A stretch of 62,104 bases of DNA, filler included, from Pirum gemmata (taxonomy: Eukaryota), in NCBI GenBank assembly GCA_002812295.1. It is 12 parts of 12 records of this genome, joined end to end, with 100 filler letters (N's around TTAATTAATTAA, not from the genome) between each part and the next. Parts side by side here need not be neighbours in the genome. Positions count along the whole stretch, not along the records: positions 41,754 to 48,066 come from PDIN01001044.1; 11 more parts are not named here. One strand, written 5' to 3'. A program made the position numbers and the translations under genes. The stretch's first letter is position 1. Every line of letters starts with the position of its first letter. The notes under the pieces are model-generated. The model ran no database searches. It worked only from the letters and a program-made list of their open reading frames with translations, and was not told the DNA's origin. Shown one piece after another: positions 41,754 through 48,066 of the stretch.

Positions 41754-43424
41754 CGAACTCCCCGAACTCCCCGAACTCCCCGAACCACTCCCCGAACTCC
41801 CCGAACCCGAACCACTCCCCGAACCCGAACCCGAACCCGAACCCGAAGAAGAAACTGTTATTTTTGGAAGTCTATTAAGAGCAAAAATACCTGGATGAGG
41901 TAATTTGGAGCTAAAATCGATAAAATCATTAGTAGCATGATTTTCAAAAACCACGGACCCAGTCAGAGTCGCATTATTGAAATAATTATGTGGCATACCG
42001 GCATTACTGTCATAGAAAAATTCAATTTTAATATTTTTTCCAATTTTATTTTTACTTGGAATGTGAAGTTTTTGAATATCACAAATAGCTAGAGAGCTTC
42101 CCGGTGATGACGAAACGTCGAAAGAATTTATAGGAAAAGTAATTATACCCTTTTCTGCAGCAGATGGAAACCAAATAAAATTATTTAATGTAACCGAAGT
42201 TACTGTCAAATTTGCATCATAAATTTTTTTATTTTTATTTATTTTATAAAAATACTTAATAGGTACAGTATTTACTGTTGGATCACTAAAAAAATTAGGA
42301 AATAATTGTTCTACTTTAATGATATTTGGAGATGTAGTAGTTGAAGAACCCAAATGGGCATTGATATCCAGAATTTCCTGTTTATTTGAAGAATTTATAA
42401 ATATAATTTCAAACTTATCTAAATTAATTTTGTTATATACATGAACTTTATCATTCCTGTTTAATCTTTTCAATATTTTTGGTTCTAAACTTACATCGCA
42501 AAAAAACATAAATTGGTCATCATTACCAAAGATTGTACGAATAGGATTATTATCCAAAAACATCAGTAACCAAACAGATTTCGAACTATTCGAATCTTCA
42601 ATAGCCGCGTATGGAAAATTTAATAAACGATGTTCAAATTTTCTTTTTAAAGTTATAGATTTTATAACATCCCCTTTACTTAAGTTAATTTTGGGATACC
42701 CTGAAATCAATGGTATTTCATAAGTACCAGTTATTTTAAAAGGAAATGAATCTGTTTGTTTGATTGTATCAATTGTGTGTGGATTTATGTTTATTTGTCC
42801 AAACAAAGTTCCTGTTTTTCTAACATATGAGTGTGCTAGATTAGTGTTAAATATTATATCAATATCGAATAAAAAATTTTGTTCTTGTGTTGCAATATCA
42901 AACGTAATATTACTATCAATTAATATTTCTGGAATGAAAGTTTCTATTTTAATTTCTTCGAAAGATTCCTTTTCTGATAAATTAAACCAATAAGTGGCGT
43001 TTTTCATACCGTCTGACACCAATTTTAAATAGTCATTATCACCAGAATGATCAGCCGTAATTGTTGCTGCAGATTTCTCACTTATTAGATAATGAGTTTG
43101 TACGGATGGATAAACTTTAACTGTCAGAAACTGCATAAACGGTTTACCAGTTGGTGAAGGGGTTTTTGTTAAATTTCCCGTAGTAAACGTTAACGTCTCG
43201 TTATATGTACCAGAATTATCACCAAAGTTAATCTCAACAGTTTCGCCTGGTTTAATAGAATCTATTGTTACAGAATTCGTAGAATTAATCTTAACTTCAT
43301 TATTCATTACTGTATGAAAATTTTCGGCCTTTTTTTTGCTTGTAGTTATATCGTAGACTATACTACTCGAAACATTTTTATTTTTTTTTTCATTTTTACC
43401 ATTTTTTATCATTTTTTTTATCAC
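41754..43424 (-). CDS. Large intronless protein of unknown function, >555 aa, running into GS-rich repeats at the scaffold end
   Basis: Long ORF in gene-dense virus-like context; probable C-terminus at 47905-48066. Confidence 0.8.
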
Positions 43425-43483
43425 GTTCTGGAGCTCTCTATTCTGTTTTTACGACCTTAGTTTTATGTTTTTAAATTGTAGCT

Positions 43484-43768
43484 TCGAACACCCTCATACT
43501 TAAAAAACACCCTCGAACACCCTCGAACACCCTCATACTTAAAACACACCATCGAACACCATCGAACACCCCCGAACACCCTCGAACAACACGCTCATAC
43601 TTAAAAACACCCTCGAACACCCTCGAACACCCTCATACTTAAAACACACCATCGAACACCATCGAACACCCTCGAACACTTAAAAATACCATCGAACACC
43701 CCCGAACACCCTCGAACAACACGCTCATACTTAAAAACACCCTCGAACACCCTCGAACACACTCGAAC
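43484..43768. repeat. Composite tandem repeat (CCCTCGAACA)n interspersed with CTCATACTTAAAA; second array at 45315-45483
   Basis: Directly visible; both arrays are intergenic. Confidence 0.92.
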
Positions 43769-43829
43769 TTTTGTACGAGATAGTCTGCGGAAGCTTTTAA
43801 GTGCTCTTTAGTCAATGTGGAAAGTCTAA

Positions 43830-44015
43830 CTAATCCTTAAAAAAACTAAGATTGTTAACACACGTTTTACTCAAACAATCATCACATACTACAAAAATAC
43901 AACCGTGATACCAAGCGCCACAGTCTCTACACTTAGAATGCTTTTCATCTTTATAATTAAAATCTGGTTTTGGTACAGATTTTTTATTAATATTAGTTTT
44001 TTTAAATTGATTCAT
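43830..44015 (-). CDS. Small putative zinc-ribbon protein
   Basis: CRDC...C...CDDC Cys pairs; same orientation as neighbours. Confidence 0.5.
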   Translation of the reverse strand: MNQFKKTNINKKSVPKPDFNYKDEKHSKCRDCGAWYHGCIFVVCDDCLSKTCVNNLSFFKD

Positions 44016-44197
44016 TATAACAATTTTTTTTCTACAATTTTTTTTTCTTTTTCTACAATTTTTTATAATTTTTTTTTTATTTTTATAATTTTATTTTTTT
44101 GTTTTGTTTTATTTCGTTTTCGTTTCAAAATTAGGTTTTCGAACACAAATATTTGATCGAACAGGGTAACACACGTCTTTTCAAAATGTACGAACGA

Positions 44198-44563
44198 TTA
44201 ATTATTTTCGTACTCGTACTTAAATTTATATTCGTGCTTGTATTTGTACTCGTACTTGTATTTGTACTCGTACTCGTACTCATACTCTTGTTTTTTAATT
44301 TCTTGTTTTTTTTCATCTTCTTGTTCATGTTCATCTTGTTTTTTTTCATCTTCTTGTTCATGTTCATCTTGTTTTTTTTCATCTTGTTCATGTTTATCTT
44401 GTTTTTTTTCATCTTCTTGTTCATGTTCATCTTGTTTTTTTTCATCTTCATATTCGTCTTGTTTTTCGTTTTCTTTTAGTCCACGCCCGAAAGCTTTTGG
44501 TTCTTTTTTAAAAGTAAAATTAGCTTCCATTTGATATGGATCTATTACGTTTGTTAAAGGCAT
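44198..44563 (-). CDS. Low-complexity acidic repeat protein (EQEDEKKQDEH)n
   Basis: Unique N-terminus MPLTNVIDPYQMEANF followed by repeats; all other frames are also open, so the call is weak. Confidence 0.35.
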   Translation of the reverse strand: MPLTNVIDPYQMEANFTFKKEPKAFGRGLKENEKQDEYEDEKKQDEHEQEDEKKQDKHEQDEKKQDEHEQEDEKKQDEHEQEDEKKQEIKKQEYEYEYEYKYKYEYKYKHEYKFKYEYENN

Positions 44564-44653
44564 TTTTTTTTTCAGATTTCTTTTTACTCTTTTTATTTTT
44601 TTTTTATTTTTTTTTATTTTTTTCAATATTATTATTTCTATTATACTATTTTT

Positions 44654-45151
44654 TTAAAAATGTTTATGTCTACGATATAGATACCCACCTTTTACACGAG
44701 CTCCCAACTTTTCTCTAAGTTTTCCCCGAGAGCTGGCATTTTTAATGATAATATTCACAATATGTTTTAACGAGATACTTTGTAAAAATTTCAACAAATA
44801 AACTTCATTAACCTTTACTATATTTGGTGCCCAAATTCCTCTTTTGTTTCCATCTTGTTTGATTATTGTTTTATTACCATTAACACAAATAAATCTATAT
44901 CTATAATTATTATTGCTTGTTTTTTCTAATGTTATACTTAAACAATCATTGTTATCACAATGAACACAACGTAATTCTTTGGTATTATCATCAATATAAT
45001 TTTTGTATAATTTTAAAGTTTCATATTCATGTAAAAGTAATTCTGGATTACTATTATAAATTTTATTGTGGAAACACCAAGAAAAATATTGAGGATCATT
45101 GATATTCTCGATATTTTTATCTTTATATTTACCAAAAGTTATTTTAGTCAT
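44654..45151 (-). CDS. Virus/phage-type protein with N-terminal FGKYK motif (DUF3820-like) and a CxxC
   Basis: MTKITFGKYKDKNIENINDPQYFSWC resembles the FGKYKG..I..I...Y..W motif. Confidence 0.65.
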   Translation of the reverse strand: MTKITFGKYKDKNIENINDPQYFSWCFHNKIYNSNPELLLHEYETLKLYKNYIDDNTKELRCVHCDNNDCLSITLEKTSNNNYRYRFICVNGNKTIIKQDGNKRGIWAPNIVKVNEVYLLKFLQSISLKHIVNIIIKNASSRGKLREKLGARVKGGYLYRRHKHF

Positions 45152-45563
45152 TTTTAAAAAATCTCACCGATAATATTAAATTTTCAATTTTTTTAACTCT
45201 TTTATAATCCAAATCAGAATTAACCCAACGATTAGGCCAGTTTCCTCGATGTATCATGGTTTTGGTTCAAAAGAAATAGAAGAAGCAAAACAAATGGAAG
45301 TAGATGGTCCGCTAACACGCTCATACTTAAAAACACCATCGAACATACTTAAAAACACCATCGAACACCCTCGAACACCCTCGAACACCCTCGAACACCC
45401 TCGAACACGCTCATACTTAAAAAACACCCTCGAACACCCTCGAACACCCTCGAACACCATCGAACACCCTCATACTTAAAAAACAGTATCATAGACTATC
45501 TCGTATATAGTTTAGATATTTTAAATTACAGAGTATAAAAACCTAAAAGTTTACACAAAAATG

Positions 45564-45681
45564 AACTTTAAAAACTTTAAAAACTTTAAAAACTTTAAAA
45601 ACTTTAAAAACTTTAAAAACTTTAAAAACTTTAAAAACTTCAAAAACTTTAAAAACTTTAAAAACTTTAAAAACTTTAAAA
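45564..45681. repeat. 9-bp tandem repeat (AAAAACTTT)n directly upstream of the EsV-1-7 ORF
   Basis: About 13 copies, directly visible. Confidence 0.95.
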
Positions 45682-45688
45682 CACAAAA

Positions 45689-46304
45689 ATGGTCAAAAAA
45701 TGCGCTGCTACAGGTTGTACAAAACAACCAAGTTTTAATTTTAAAGGTGAAAATCCTTTATATTGTAATAATCATAAAGAAAAAGACATGGTAGATGTAA
45801 TTCACAAAACATGTGATGTTGAAGATTGCTTAACAAGACCAAATTTCAATTATGAAGGTGAGAAAAACCCTTTATATTGTAAGAAACATAAAACAAATGA
45901 CATGATTGATATAACAAATAAAAAAACATGCGCTGACATTGATTGTTTAATAAGCCCAGCTTTCAATATAAAAGGTAAAAAAAACCCTTTATATTGTAAG
46001 AAGCATAAAACAAGCGACATGGTTAATGTGGTAAGTAAAACATGCACTGACGACAATTGTACAAAACAACCAAGTTTCAATTATGAAGGTGAGACAACAC
46101 CTTTATATTGTAAGAAACATAAAGAAGACAATATGATTGATGTAAAAAAAAAAACATGTGATGCCAAAGGTTGTACAAAAAAACCATGTTTCAATTTTGA
46201 AGGAGAGACACCTTTATATTGCAAAGGTCATATACAAAAAGGTATGATTGATGTAACAAGTAAAAAAACATGCGATTTCGAAGGTTGTACAACACGACCA
46301 AGTT
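45689..46304 (+). CDS. EsV-1-7-type cysteine-rich repeat protein (about 5.5 repeats), typical of giant viruses
   Basis: Repeat unit C..xC.K.P.FN..GE..LYC..HK..DM.DV..K.; interrupted at a single N at 46305. Confidence 0.88.
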
Positions 46305-46305
46305 N

Positions 46306-47312
46306 AAATTTAAGAAATTTACTCGTTACTAAACAAAATCGTTGTGGTAAACAAAATGAGTTGGTATACGATTGGGAATGTGAAACACCTAAAGATTTGC
46401 GAGCATCAGCAGTAAAAAGTCTTATTACTGGTTTTAAAGCAGCTAAAACAAATTTTGAAAAAGGAAATAATGATGGTTATTCAATGAAATTTCGTAGTAA
46501 GAAAAAAAATCCATATTACTCCATGAAAGGTTAATTGTTTAAAGATATATAATAGAAAAGTGAAAATTTATAATAGAAAAACAAAAGGCTTTTTAAAACT
46601 ACAAAAAAGAGATGACTTAAAGTATTTAAAAAATATCGAAAATGAGTTCGAAATATCTTTTCGAAATAACAAATGGTTTTTACATGTTCTTCGAATTAAA
46701 CAAATTGAAGACTCGGAGTTATTACAAGACACCGGCAATGTAGCGTTAGATCCAGGATCAAGAACTTTTTTAGCTGGTTATAGTGATAATATAGTGTTTA
46801 ATATTCAACAAAATAGAGGTCGTTTAAAAAAGTTAAAAGTTAAAATGTCATTTTTACAAAGTCTCAAAGATAAACTAAGTATTACAAAACGGTCTTACAA
46901 AAGAAAATTTAAAAATCTAATGTATAAGTATAATAATTTAATAGATGAATTACATTATAAAGCCATTATATGGTTAGATAATTTTAATTCTATATATTTA
47001 CCGTCGTTCGAGGTAAAACAAATGACCAAAAAATGTAAATTAAACAAGTCAACAAAAATTGATTTATTAGGTTTAAAACACTTTAAATTCAAGACTCGGA
47101 TAAAATCAAGGCTGAAAACCAAAGTTTTTGATTGTACCGAAGAATATACAAGCCAAACTTGTACTAATTGTGGTATTGTCGATAAATCGAACTGTATTAA
47201 AACTAAACAAAACCGTCGTTGGTATAAGTGTAAAAATTGTAATTACATAATTGACCGTGATATAAATGGTGCAAGAAATATATGGTTGAAATGTCATTAT
47301 GAACATAAATAA
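46306..47312 (+). mobile_element. Fanzor2 / IS607-TnpB-like RNA-guided nuclease, N-terminally incomplete, with a frame break near 46534-46560
   Basis: WECETPKDLRASAV...MKFRSKK; RuvC-I ALDPGSRTFL; IYLPSF; RuvC-II TEEYTSQTCTNCG; CKNC..IDRDINGARNI (RuvC-III). Confidence 0.92.
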
Positions 47313-47451
47313 TAGGTTATTGTAAAATAACAAGGGTCTTGCTAGGACTCTTTAGAGACATGTGGACTATGCGAAAACATGTTTGATGTTTTATAATTAA
47401 TCGATATGATAATTATAATCATTGGTAGCGGTTAAATTACTCAATACCGAA
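47313..47451 (+). ncRNA. Predicted Fanzor omegaRNA scaffold (to about 47431) plus flanking guide
   Basis: Immediately 3' of the ORF; hairpins GTTATT-GTAA-AATAAC, GGGTCTT-GCT-AGGACTC, ACATGT..ACATGT, ATGAT..ATCAT; ends TAGCGG; boundary is inferred. Confidence 0.55.
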
Positions 47452-47536
47452 CATGAATGGTCAAATTATTTTGAAATCAGATGATGTGAAACATAATATA
47501 ATGATTTGTGCTTTGGTGGCTTTCATTGAAAATATA

Positions 47537-47799
47537 AATGAGGCTAATGAGGCTAATGAGGCTAATGAGGCTAATGAGGCTAATGAGGCTAATGAGGCTG
47601 TTAACTGTTAACAAGTTTTATAATTATAAACTATGTTTCCGATTTTTTTTCCAATGTAACGAAAATAAATATTTTAACCATTTAACTTTATCGAAGTGGT
47701 ATCCGGAGTTCGAAGTGGTATCCGGGAGTTCGAAGTGGTATCCGGGAGTTCGAAGTGGCATCGGGGAGTTCGAAGTGGTATCAGGAGTTCGAAGTGGTA
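47537..47799. repeat. (AATGAGGCT)n array at 47537-47599 and ~20-bp (GGAGTTCGAAGTGGTATCC)n array at 47690-47799
   Basis: Directly visible. Confidence 0.92.
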
Positions 47800-47801
47800 A
47801 C

Positions 47802-47934
47802 AAACGGTCTTACAAAAGAAAATTTAAAAATCTAATGTATAAGTATAATAATTTAATAGATGAATTACATTATAAAACAATTATATGGTTAGATAATTTT
47901 AATTCTATATATTTACCATCATTCGAGGTAAAAC
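47802..47934 (+). repeat. 133-bp near-identical duplicate of Fanzor coding segment 46887-47019
   Basis: Encodes KRSYKRKFKNLMYKYNNLIDELHYK.IIWLDNFNSIYLPSFEVK in both places. Confidence 0.93.
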
Positions 47935-48066
47935 TCTATTCCAATAAATAATTAATAAAAATATAAAAAATAACCATAGAAACAAAACTAACCAAATTGA
48001 CAACATCGAATCATTCCCGCTCCCTCTCCCCGAACTCCCCGAACTCCCCGAACTCCCCGAACTCCC
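47905..48066 (-). CDS. Probable C-terminal, TM-containing end of the 41754-43424 ORF
   Basis: Translates (GSS)n-GRGSGNDSMLSIWLVLFLWLFFIFLLIIYWNRVLPRMMVNI*, using the same TCGGGGAGT repeat and strand as the ORF end at 41754. Confidence 0.65.
   Translation of the reverse strand, partial: GSSGSSGSSGSSGRGSGNDSMLSIWLVLFLWLFFIFLLIIYWNRVLPRMMVNI

What the first reader, a model, noticed from the sequence alone, without database searches (positions are those of the whole stretch)
41754..48066. 6.3-kb virus-like Fanzor scaffold whose ends join in frame: small circle or tandem unit
Seen: the minus-strand 572-aa ORF leaves the left end in (TCGGGGAGT)n coding for GSS. The right end starts, on the same strand, with the same repeat and continues GRGSGNDSMLSIWLVLFLWLFFIFLLIIYW...*, supplying the missing TM and stop. 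The scaffold is intronless and gene-dense, lacks the host MITEs and TAGCTAG runs seen elsewhere, and carries EsV-1-7 repeats, an FGKYK protein and a Fanzor2. Inference: it is circularly permuted, so it is either an episomal circle with no recognisable replicase (satellite or transpoviron-like, dependent on a giant virus) or a collapsed tandem array in an endogenised virus.
Basis: partly seen in the sequence, partly recalled or inferred. Interest (0 to 1): 0.85.

Follow-up and report, generated by a model that had tools for sequence, protein, structure and literature searches.

The report
Virus-like Fanzor segment, probably not circular
A likely giant-virus-derived stretch in a single-celled relative of animals carries an RNA-guided nuclease gene (Fanzor2) and its two ends fit together, but its read depth is no higher than the host's, so the apparent circle is most likely an assembly effect of repeated Fanzor copies.

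Summary
The end match is real: both ends carry the same 9-mer Gly-Ser-Ser repeat, and the right end continues in frame into a transmembrane stretch. But the overlap is repeat only (9, 18 or 27 nt), and the scaffold is two contigs joined by one N at 46305 that hides missing Fanzor sequence. Two ORFs match EukProt Pirum gemmata gene models (ichthyosporean). In run X1 the element's unique contigs have depth 278-329, against 380-424 for a host control scaffold (ratio about 0.75-0.8): not amplified. The Fanzor part is about twice as deep, and contigs branch into other sequence at both of its ends. Best reading (0.58): a linear segment near single-copy level, with the right contig lying before the left one and a collapsed multi-copy Fanzor supplying the closing join. 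A tandem array is unlikely (0.08); a low-copy circle is not excluded (0.12). The nuclease is a Fanzor2 (DPG, shifted Glu, zinc finger, GTAGCGG right end shared with giant-virus relatives), without IS607 resolvase in the scaffold. No transpoviron helicase, terminal repeats or viral hallmark gene. The scan's earlier notes hold nothing on this element. New member of a known kind.

The parts
41754..46304 (.). Contig A of the scaffold (4551 nt); unique parts at depth 278-329 in run X1
46305..46305 (.). Single N: unsized scaffolding join; at least about 45-50 codons of the Fanzor core are missing before 46306, and a contig of X1 continues 104 letters upstream with sequence that is not the EsV-1-7 repeat
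46306..48066 (.). Contig B of the scaffold (1761 nt): Fanzor2, right end, repeats, Fanzor fragment, TM-coding piece
41754..41846 (-). Gly/Ser linker repeat at the left end; perfect 9-nt period over the first 32 nt
41754..43424 (-). Orphan ORF, 557 codons open at the scaffold end, beta-rich in low-confidence models; identical to part of EukProt model Pgem_evm1s290; no other relative found
42993..43411 (-). 5' part of the orphan ORF that seems to exist at a second locus (depth 489; a second branch of depth about 310 inferred from bin arithmetic)
43488..43772 (.). 10-mer CACCCTCGAA-type repeat array, second array at 45314-45479; high summed depth in X1, present as contigs in X2, so repeated elsewhere
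44198..44626 (-). 142-aa acidic low-complexity ORF, no family
44654..45151 (-). 165-aa FGKYK protein (ExoX-like_C motif, 23.2 bits, under the 26.5 cut-off); matches EukProt Pgem_evm3s290; atlas look-alikes mostly bacterial hypothetical proteins (weak)
45689..46304 (+). EsV-1-7 cysteine-rich repeat ORF, open at the N; 41-49% identical to proteins of 5 viral contigs
46307..46534 (+). Fanzor2 N-terminal-lobe piece, in a different frame from the RuvC piece in this assembly; a contig of X1 differs here by an 8-letter indel at 46531
46527..47312 (+). Fanzor2 RuvC piece: DPG (D at 46749), alternative Glu (47139), CxxC-CxxC zinc finger, third Asp (47259)
47313..47431 (+). Predicted guide-RNA scaffold and transposon right end GTAGCGG (47425-47431); another copy in X1 leaves into different flank behind 47435
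47685..47801 (.). 20-mer repeat array; also found beside other sequence in X1
47802..47934 (+). 133-nt copy of Fanzor 46887-47019 (129 of 133 identical); its antisense gives the last 9 residues and stop of the TM frame
47905..48066 (-). GSS repeat (41-nt perfect period), linker and hydrophobic helix (47947-48003), 53 codons and stop: likely C-terminus of the orphan ORF

Best explanation
This is most likely a linear, near single-copy piece of giant-virus-derived DNA in the Pirum gemmata genome that only looks circular because a repeated Fanzor2 element was likely collapsed in assembly. Shown: the two ends share only the 9-mer repeat; the scaffold has a second, unsized break at 46305; unique parts are at 0.75-0.79 of host depth; the Fanzor part is about twice as deep and branches at both ends. 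Inferred: the true order is contig B then contig A, which completes a membrane-anchored orphan protein (beta-rich body, Gly/Ser linker, C-terminal helix), while the N join links the EsV-1-7 gene to a second Fanzor copy downstream (or is a mis-join to one elsewhere). Inferred from family knowledge: the Fanzor2 belongs to an IS607-type element that spread to several copies; its RNA would be made from the 120 nt before the GG right end, use the flank as guide and cut empty sites, with the serine recombinase lost, hidden in the gap or supplied in trans.
For: Depth of long, mismatch-free X1 contigs: element 328.8 (1165 nt laid), 303.1, 300.7, 278.3 against host 423.8, 420.1, 379.7 for the three longest of 7 pieces used, range 209-576; weighted ratio 0.75-0.79 at similar GC. 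Fanzor contigs 521 and 760, and 670 for the near-identical part at 47128-47270, 2.15 times the unique depth. Loose ends before 46306 (104 letters) and behind 47435 (255 letters), plus a divergent copy with 35 differences in 287 nt. Relatives have 45-50 more core residues before the first matched block and a resolvase start 679-766 nt upstream in six close loci; 44 of 78 viral Fanzor loci have the resolvase, the window none. In 4 of 5 viral EsV-1-7 relatives the repeats run on into a further C-terminal domain, never into a Fanzor. The Fanzor groups with 9 viral-contig and 6 unnamed proteins (SH-aLRT 94, quick tree). TM-coding piece has depth of at most about 407, so it is not amplified either.
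Against: No contig bridges either join; repeats are skipped by the tool and the contigs are short. The extra Fanzor copies may lie anywhere in the genome, not flanking this segment. The tool warns that contig depth is no copy number; the host control is one scaffold (8 of 2573 pieces shown) and X1 may be the data behind the assembly. No junction to host-type DNA was seen, so integration is inferred from depth alone. No viral hallmark gene is present, two of the ORFs have no viral relative, and ViralRecall gave no reliable hit on this genome (PMC11244446, passage). A 26-letter-sided joint 45339 to 47706 (depth 512) is unexplained.
Confidence: 0.58

Rival explanations
1. The two ends belong to different Gly/Ser-repeat genes; they were both cut at the same repeat and are not neighbours.
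For: The overlap holds no unique base. Parts of the element exist in variant copies elsewhere, including the 5' third of the orphan ORF. No homolog exists to show that this protein ends in this helix.
Against: No variant of 85% identity or more was laid on 41858-43022; the repeat occurs at no other scaffold end of the 12; orientation, frame and protein logic (linker then helix) all fit.
Confidence: 0.15
2. Both joins are real on one molecule: a small replicase-free circle, possibly excised by recombination between two Fanzor copies and kept near one copy per host genome or copied by a helper virus.
For: Both ends fit and a scaffolder joined A to B. IS607 elements move through a circular double-stranded intermediate (PMC10711439, figure legend passage). 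Depth is slightly below, not equal to, the host control.
Against: Depth close to the host's would be a coincidence for an episome. No helicase, polymerase, resolvase or terminal repeats. The Fanzor in this copy is frame-broken and a second fragment lies 900 nt away, as in decaying DNA. Both Fanzor ends branch to other sequence.
Confidence: 0.12
3. A collapsed head-to-tail tandem array inside an endogenous virus.
For: Explains both joins; tandem clusters of intron-poor genes are described in Amoebidium (PMC11244446 section 7). Variant contigs overlap several parts.
Against: Two or more copies should give at least twice the host depth; 0.75-0.79 is seen, and the longest unique contig has no variant letters. 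It survives only if the array is on one homologue or in part of the cells.
Confidence: 0.08
4. A fragment of a larger, non-integrated giant-virus genome sequenced with the culture.
For: Gene-dense, CpG not depleted (1.09 after masking, highest of 12 scaffolds), own family of intergenic repeats not shared with the 11 other scaffolds, no host junction seen.
Against: Depth near the host's; broken Fanzor and duplicated fragments; no hallmark gene; no reliable ViralRecall hit reported for this genome.
Confidence: 0.07

Closest known systems
IS607-like Fanzor2 elements of giant viruses (e.g. the A. polyphaga mimivirus element, three copies per genome; PMC10530073 passages) and the GVMAG loci L006-L011, L014
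   Same: DPG, shifted Glu, zinc finger; 35-43% identity; structured 3' region ending in GTAGCGG; several copies per genome
   Different: No resolvase in the scaffold; 5' part missing at the N; this copy frame-broken; found in an ichthyosporean assembly
Giant endogenous viral elements of the ichthyosporean Amoebidium appalachense (PMC11244446, section 7 and passages)
   Same: Gene-dense, intron-poor, virus-like DNA in an ichthyosporean genome, incomplete and invaded by mobile elements
   Different: No capsid, A32, D5, VLTF3 or JmjC gene in this 6 kb; methylation and chromosomal position untested; that study found no reliable hit in P. gemmata
Transpovirons (PMC7031253, passages)
   Same: Size of 6-7 kb, a Cys-rich protein, a protein with a membrane helix, intergenic tandem repeats
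   Different: Transpovirons are linear with 380-520 nt terminal inverted repeats and a core helicase; neither is here
EsV-1-7 repeat proteins of giant viruses (PF19114; loci L001-L005)
   Same: Five to six 38-residue Cys-rich repeats, 41-49% identity
   Different: The C-terminal domain seen in 4 of 5 relatives is not in the scaffold; the ORF is cut at the N

Membership tests
Fanzor2 | RuvC-I motif DPG | tested here: met
   D64 P65 G66 invariant in 20 of 20 aligned rows; definition from PMC10711439 passage
Fanzor2 | Alternative catalytic Glu six residues before the zinc finger, then CxxC..CxxC and third Asp | tested here: met
   E194, C201/C204, C224/C227, D234; spacer between the CxxC pairs is 19, one above the 12-18 of the paper's search pattern
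Fanzor2 | Complete N-terminal wedge/recognition lobe in one reading frame | tested here: inconclusive
   Missing before 46306 and frame-broken at about 46530 in this assembly; X1 shows further upstream sequence and an indel there
Fanzor2 | Structured guide RNA at the right end, expressed, with RNA-guided cleavage | not testable with these tools
   Fold z-score -1.88, 8 of 200 shuffles as good; no Rfam match; no RNA holder listed
IS607 element | Right end at a GG dinucleotide | tested here: met
   GTAGCGG ends at 47431; same 7-mer in 8 of 49 locatable viral loci; L007/L008 and L008/L073 diverge right after it; X1 copy diverges 4 nt later
IS607 element | Serine-recombinase TnpA upstream of the nuclease | tested here: inconclusive
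   No hit in the window at E 1, present in 44 of 78 viral loci; the place where it would lie is the unsized gap
Transpoviron | Terminal inverted repeats of several hundred nt | tested here: not met
   27 of first 100 nt match; no long inverted pair at the ends
Transpoviron | Core helicase gene | tested here: not met
   No helicase family in 6 and 7 ORFs scanned; the gap at 46305 is unseen
Transpoviron | Amplified episome dependent on a giant virus | tested here: not met
   Depth 0.75-0.79 of host control in X1
Collapsed tandem array | Depth at least twice that of single-copy DNA over the whole unit | tested here: not met
   Unique parts 278-329 against host 380-424
Circular DNA element | Unique sequence bridged across every junction of the unit | not testable with these tools
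   Only assembled contigs were available; none bridges either join
Giant endogenous viral element | Hallmark genes (major capsid protein, A32 ATPase, D5, VLTF3, PolB) | tested here: not met
   None in this scaffold; the rest of the genome was not available
Giant endogenous viral element | Genes whose nearest relatives are in giant viruses | tested here: met
   2 of 4 searched ORFs: EsV-1-7 and Fanzor2; none for the orphan and FGKYK ORFs
Giant endogenous viral element | Junction with host chromosomal DNA | tested here: inconclusive
   No junction seen; only depth similarity

The most novel reading that the evidence does not exclude
Two Fanzor2 copies flank an orphan membrane-protein cassette like a composite transposon, and recombination between them releases a replicase-free circle of about 7 kb that persists near one copy per genome in an ichthyosporean: a Fanzor-borne gene-capture circle of eukaryotes.
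Probability: 0.12. Interest if true: 0.75.

Novelty: new member of a known kind. Interest (0 to 1): 0.3.

Why it matters
If the best reading holds, it adds a multi-copy Fanzor2 with a defined right end, and a patch of giant-virus-type genes, to an ichthyosporean genome in which a published marker scan found no reliable viral hit; no paper in the held library has both 'Ichthyosporea' and 'Fanzor' or 'Fanzor' and 'EsV-1-7'. That is useful but ordinary: Fanzor2 and endogenous giant-virus DNA are known kinds. It also shows how a mobile element can make a short-read scaffold look circular. A real circle would matter much more, as a new kind of Fanzor-driven mobile unit.

Tried and rejected
Whole genome not held, so other copies could not be read directly. 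Orphan ORF: only its own EukProt model found among 7998 candidates and among 1.84 billion representatives; none in viral contigs (0 of 14 stretches) or metagenome contigs (0 of 348); no atlas hit; models too poor to use (pLDDT 36.7; 47.9; no fold match at E 0.001); N-glycosylation sequons not enriched (11 against 8.0, p 0.15; an earlier run of this test was in the wrong frame). FGKYK ORF: no viral locus (0 of 15). Single-sequence Fanzor scan of viral contigs found nothing; the alignment did. 20-mer repeat absent from viral contigs. No Rfam match. No RNA holder listed. Runs X2 and X3 cover only repeats or low-complexity parts and were not used as evidence. The joints 45193-47953 and 45339-47706 have sides under 30 letters and were not relied on. 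The guide-side flank has no second match in the window. The careful tree did not finish; the quick tree was used. An EsV-1-7-Fanzor fusion was considered because the frame runs across the N, and set aside because sequence is missing there and no relative shows it.
Full report
Setting. The window is a string of 12 unplaced scaffolds of about 4.5-7.7 kb joined by linkers of 44 N, TTAATTAATTAA and 44 N. No whole genome is held. The finding covers one scaffold, 41754-48066. Its long ORF is identical over 511 residues to EukProt model Pgem_evm1s290 of Pirum gemmata and its FGKYK ORF matches Pgem_evm3s290, so the assembly is of that species; that it is an ichthyosporean is stated in PMC11244446 (passage).

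The observation. The minus-strand ORF leaves the left end in Gly-Ser-Ser repeats; it has 557 codons inside the scaffold, the count of 572 including 15 codons of N. The right end reads four GSS units, a short linker, a hydrophobic helix (hydropathy 3.02 over 19 residues) and a stop. End-to-end overlap is 9, 18 or 27 nt, whole repeat units only, while none of the 11 other scaffolds overlaps by more than 4 nt. The match is therefore not chance, but it holds no unique base and the frame fit follows from the 9-nt period. The last nine residues and the stop come from the antisense of a 133-nt copy of the Fanzor gene (129 of 133 identical). ORF coverage is 0.77, higher than 10 of the 11 other scaffolds. 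The lack of TAGCTAG and of shared repeats is weaker than stated: one copy is present, two other scaffolds have none, and one typical host scaffold also has no cross-scaffold hit. The public gene models are spliced and no RNA holder was listed, so 'intronless' is open.

A second break. A single N at 46305 splits the scaffold into contig A (4551 nt) and contig B (1761 nt). A ends inside the sixth EsV-1-7 repeat and B starts inside the Fanzor gene. Relatives have a conserved block 45-50 residues before the first block matched in B. In six close viral loci that I picked, the IS607 resolvase starts 679-766 nt before that point; 44 of 78 viral Fanzor loci carry it and the window has no hit. In 4 of 5 viral EsV-1-7 relatives (two of them near-identical) the repeats continue into a further domain of about 150 residues with a nuclease-type motif (my reading, label recalled), in none into a Fanzor. 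A contig of run X1 continues 104 letters upstream of 46306 with other sequence than the EsV-1-7 repeat. The N thus hides a gap of unknown size or joins non-neighbours.

Depth. One run, X1, holds 0.89 of the sampled words of contig A; it may be the data behind the assembly and is kept only as contigs. Using single long contigs without mismatches, the element's unique parts have depth 328.8, 303.1, 300.7 and 278.3 (8 X1 pieces shown among 24 of 629). A host control scaffold chosen for its ordinary host-type sequence (17138-21710) gives 423.8, 420.1 and 379.7 for its three longest pieces, with a range of 209-576 over the 7 used (8 of 2573 pieces shown, one with mismatches and gaps dropped). The length-weighted ratio is 0.75-0.79. 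The tool warns that such depth is no copy number, and one control scaffold is thin, but a collapsed array of two or more units or an amplified episome should be at twice the host or more. The transmembrane-coding piece is bounded at about 407 by bin arithmetic.

The Fanzor is the repeated part. Its contigs have depth 521 and 760, and the near-identical share at 47128-47270 is 670, 2.15 times the unique parts. Contigs leave it into other sequence before 46306 and behind 47435 (12 of 107 loose ends shown), and a divergent copy differs at 35 of 287 letters. At 46531 the run's contig differs from the window by an 8-letter indel and two nearby substitutions; the window's copy is frame-broken there (offset 1), so the copy in the run would read through. 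Other parts also have variant copies, among them the 5' 140 codons of the orphan ORF (branch of depth about 310, inferred). This is the pattern expected of a unique segment among several copies of a mobile element. No contig bridges either join, so topology is not shown.

What the nuclease is. DPG, a Glu six residues before the zinc finger, two CxxC pairs and a third Asp are all present, the Fanzor signature given in PMC10711439 (passages); the CxxC spacer is 19, one more than that paper's search pattern. Best relatives are 35-43% identical. In a quick tree of 88 rows it sits in a set of 16 (SH-aLRT 94, not starred) with 9 viral contigs, 8 of them named GVMAG, and 6 unnamed proteins; the rows were drawn mostly from a viral collection, so this does not prove a viral donor. 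The sequence GTAGCGG ends at 47431, 119 nt after the stop; the same 7-mer follows 8 of 49 locatable viral relatives, and pairs L007/L008 and L008/L073 diverge directly after it, which marks the IS607-type GG right end. The region folds into hairpins with modest support (z -1.88, 8 of 200 shuffles as good) and matches no Rfam family. Activity is inferred from the family only.

Mechanism, best reading (0.58). The true order is likely B then A, giving one gene for a beta-rich protein with a Gly/Ser linker and a C-terminal membrane anchor whose tail was overwritten by a Fanzor fragment. The A-to-B join likely arose because the EsV-1-7 gene is followed by another near-identical Fanzor copy, which the assembler merged with the one in B, or by a mis-join. 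The segment is then linear, near single-copy, probably integrated and decaying. Rivals: the ends belong to different genes (0.15); a true low-copy circle (0.12); a collapsed array (0.08); a piece of a free giant virus (0.07).

Comparison. Transpovirons have terminal inverted repeats of 380-520 nt and a core helicase (PMC7031253, passages); neither is here. Amoebidium carries many endogenous giant-virus regions with hallmark genes, and the same study found no reliable ViralRecall hit in P. gemmata (PMC11244446, section 7 and passages; its table S5 was not read and may bear on this). Multi-copy Fanzor2 in IS607 elements of giant viruses and eukaryotes is described (PMC10530073, passages). Searches for 'Ichthyosporea' with 'Fanzor' and 'Fanzor' with 'EsV-1-7' found no paper; some searches were seen as listings only. 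The scan's earlier findings hold nothing on this element; of two notes on other pieces of this genome, one agrees on a single-celled relative of animals as host.

Verdict. Observation partly confirmed, interpretation partly supported. A new member of a known kind; interest 0.3. The circle remains a 12% possibility that long reads would settle.

Noticed in passing
window 57963-59864 (+): 633-codon single ORF with a poly(A) polymerase catalytic domain (PF19244, E 4e-25), a hydrophobic N-terminus and a hydrophobic C-terminal stretch; similar-looking genes lie in giant-virus loci L001, L004, L005. Possibly a virus-derived gene given membrane targeting.
   Followed up: partly
window 12438-17037: Two oppositely oriented, near-identical leucine-rich-repeat single-pass membrane protein ORFs in one scaffold.
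   Followed up: partly
window 7840 and 31024: Two of 12 scaffolds begin with AACCCT telomere-type repeats; a further run lies inside the first scaffold near 2455.
   Followed up: no
window 43488-43772, 45314-45479, 47685-47801, 41754-41846, 48023-48066: The 10-mer, 20-mer and 9-mer repeats all share a CGAAC core (20-mer on the opposite strand); 37 TCGAAC sites here against 0-5 in ten other scaffolds and 16 in one. Summed depth suggests many more such arrays in the genome.
   Followed up: partly
window 45339 to 47706: A contig of X1 (depth 512) joins these two places, skipping the EsV-1-7 gene and the Fanzor; side only 26 letters, so it may come from another repeat locus or from an empty-site allele.
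   Followed up: no
L071:3149-3577 and L072:4707-5135: 2 of 78 viral Fanzor loci (identical pair) have an EsV-1-7 repeat gene about 1.2 kb from the Fanzor.
   Followed up: no
window 11043-11627 (-) and 37768-38202 (+): Remnants that read like Ty1/copia integrase and reverse-transcriptase/RNase H sequence (label from recall; no Pfam hit for the second at E 0.01).
   Followed up: partly
window 5200-6190: Tandem array of about 70-100 nt units upstream of a 161-codon ORF at 6445-6930 with no Pfam family.
   Followed up: no
window 35636: A second scaffold with a single-N join (4612 + 1315 nt), suggesting a later scaffolding step added such joins.
   Followed up: no
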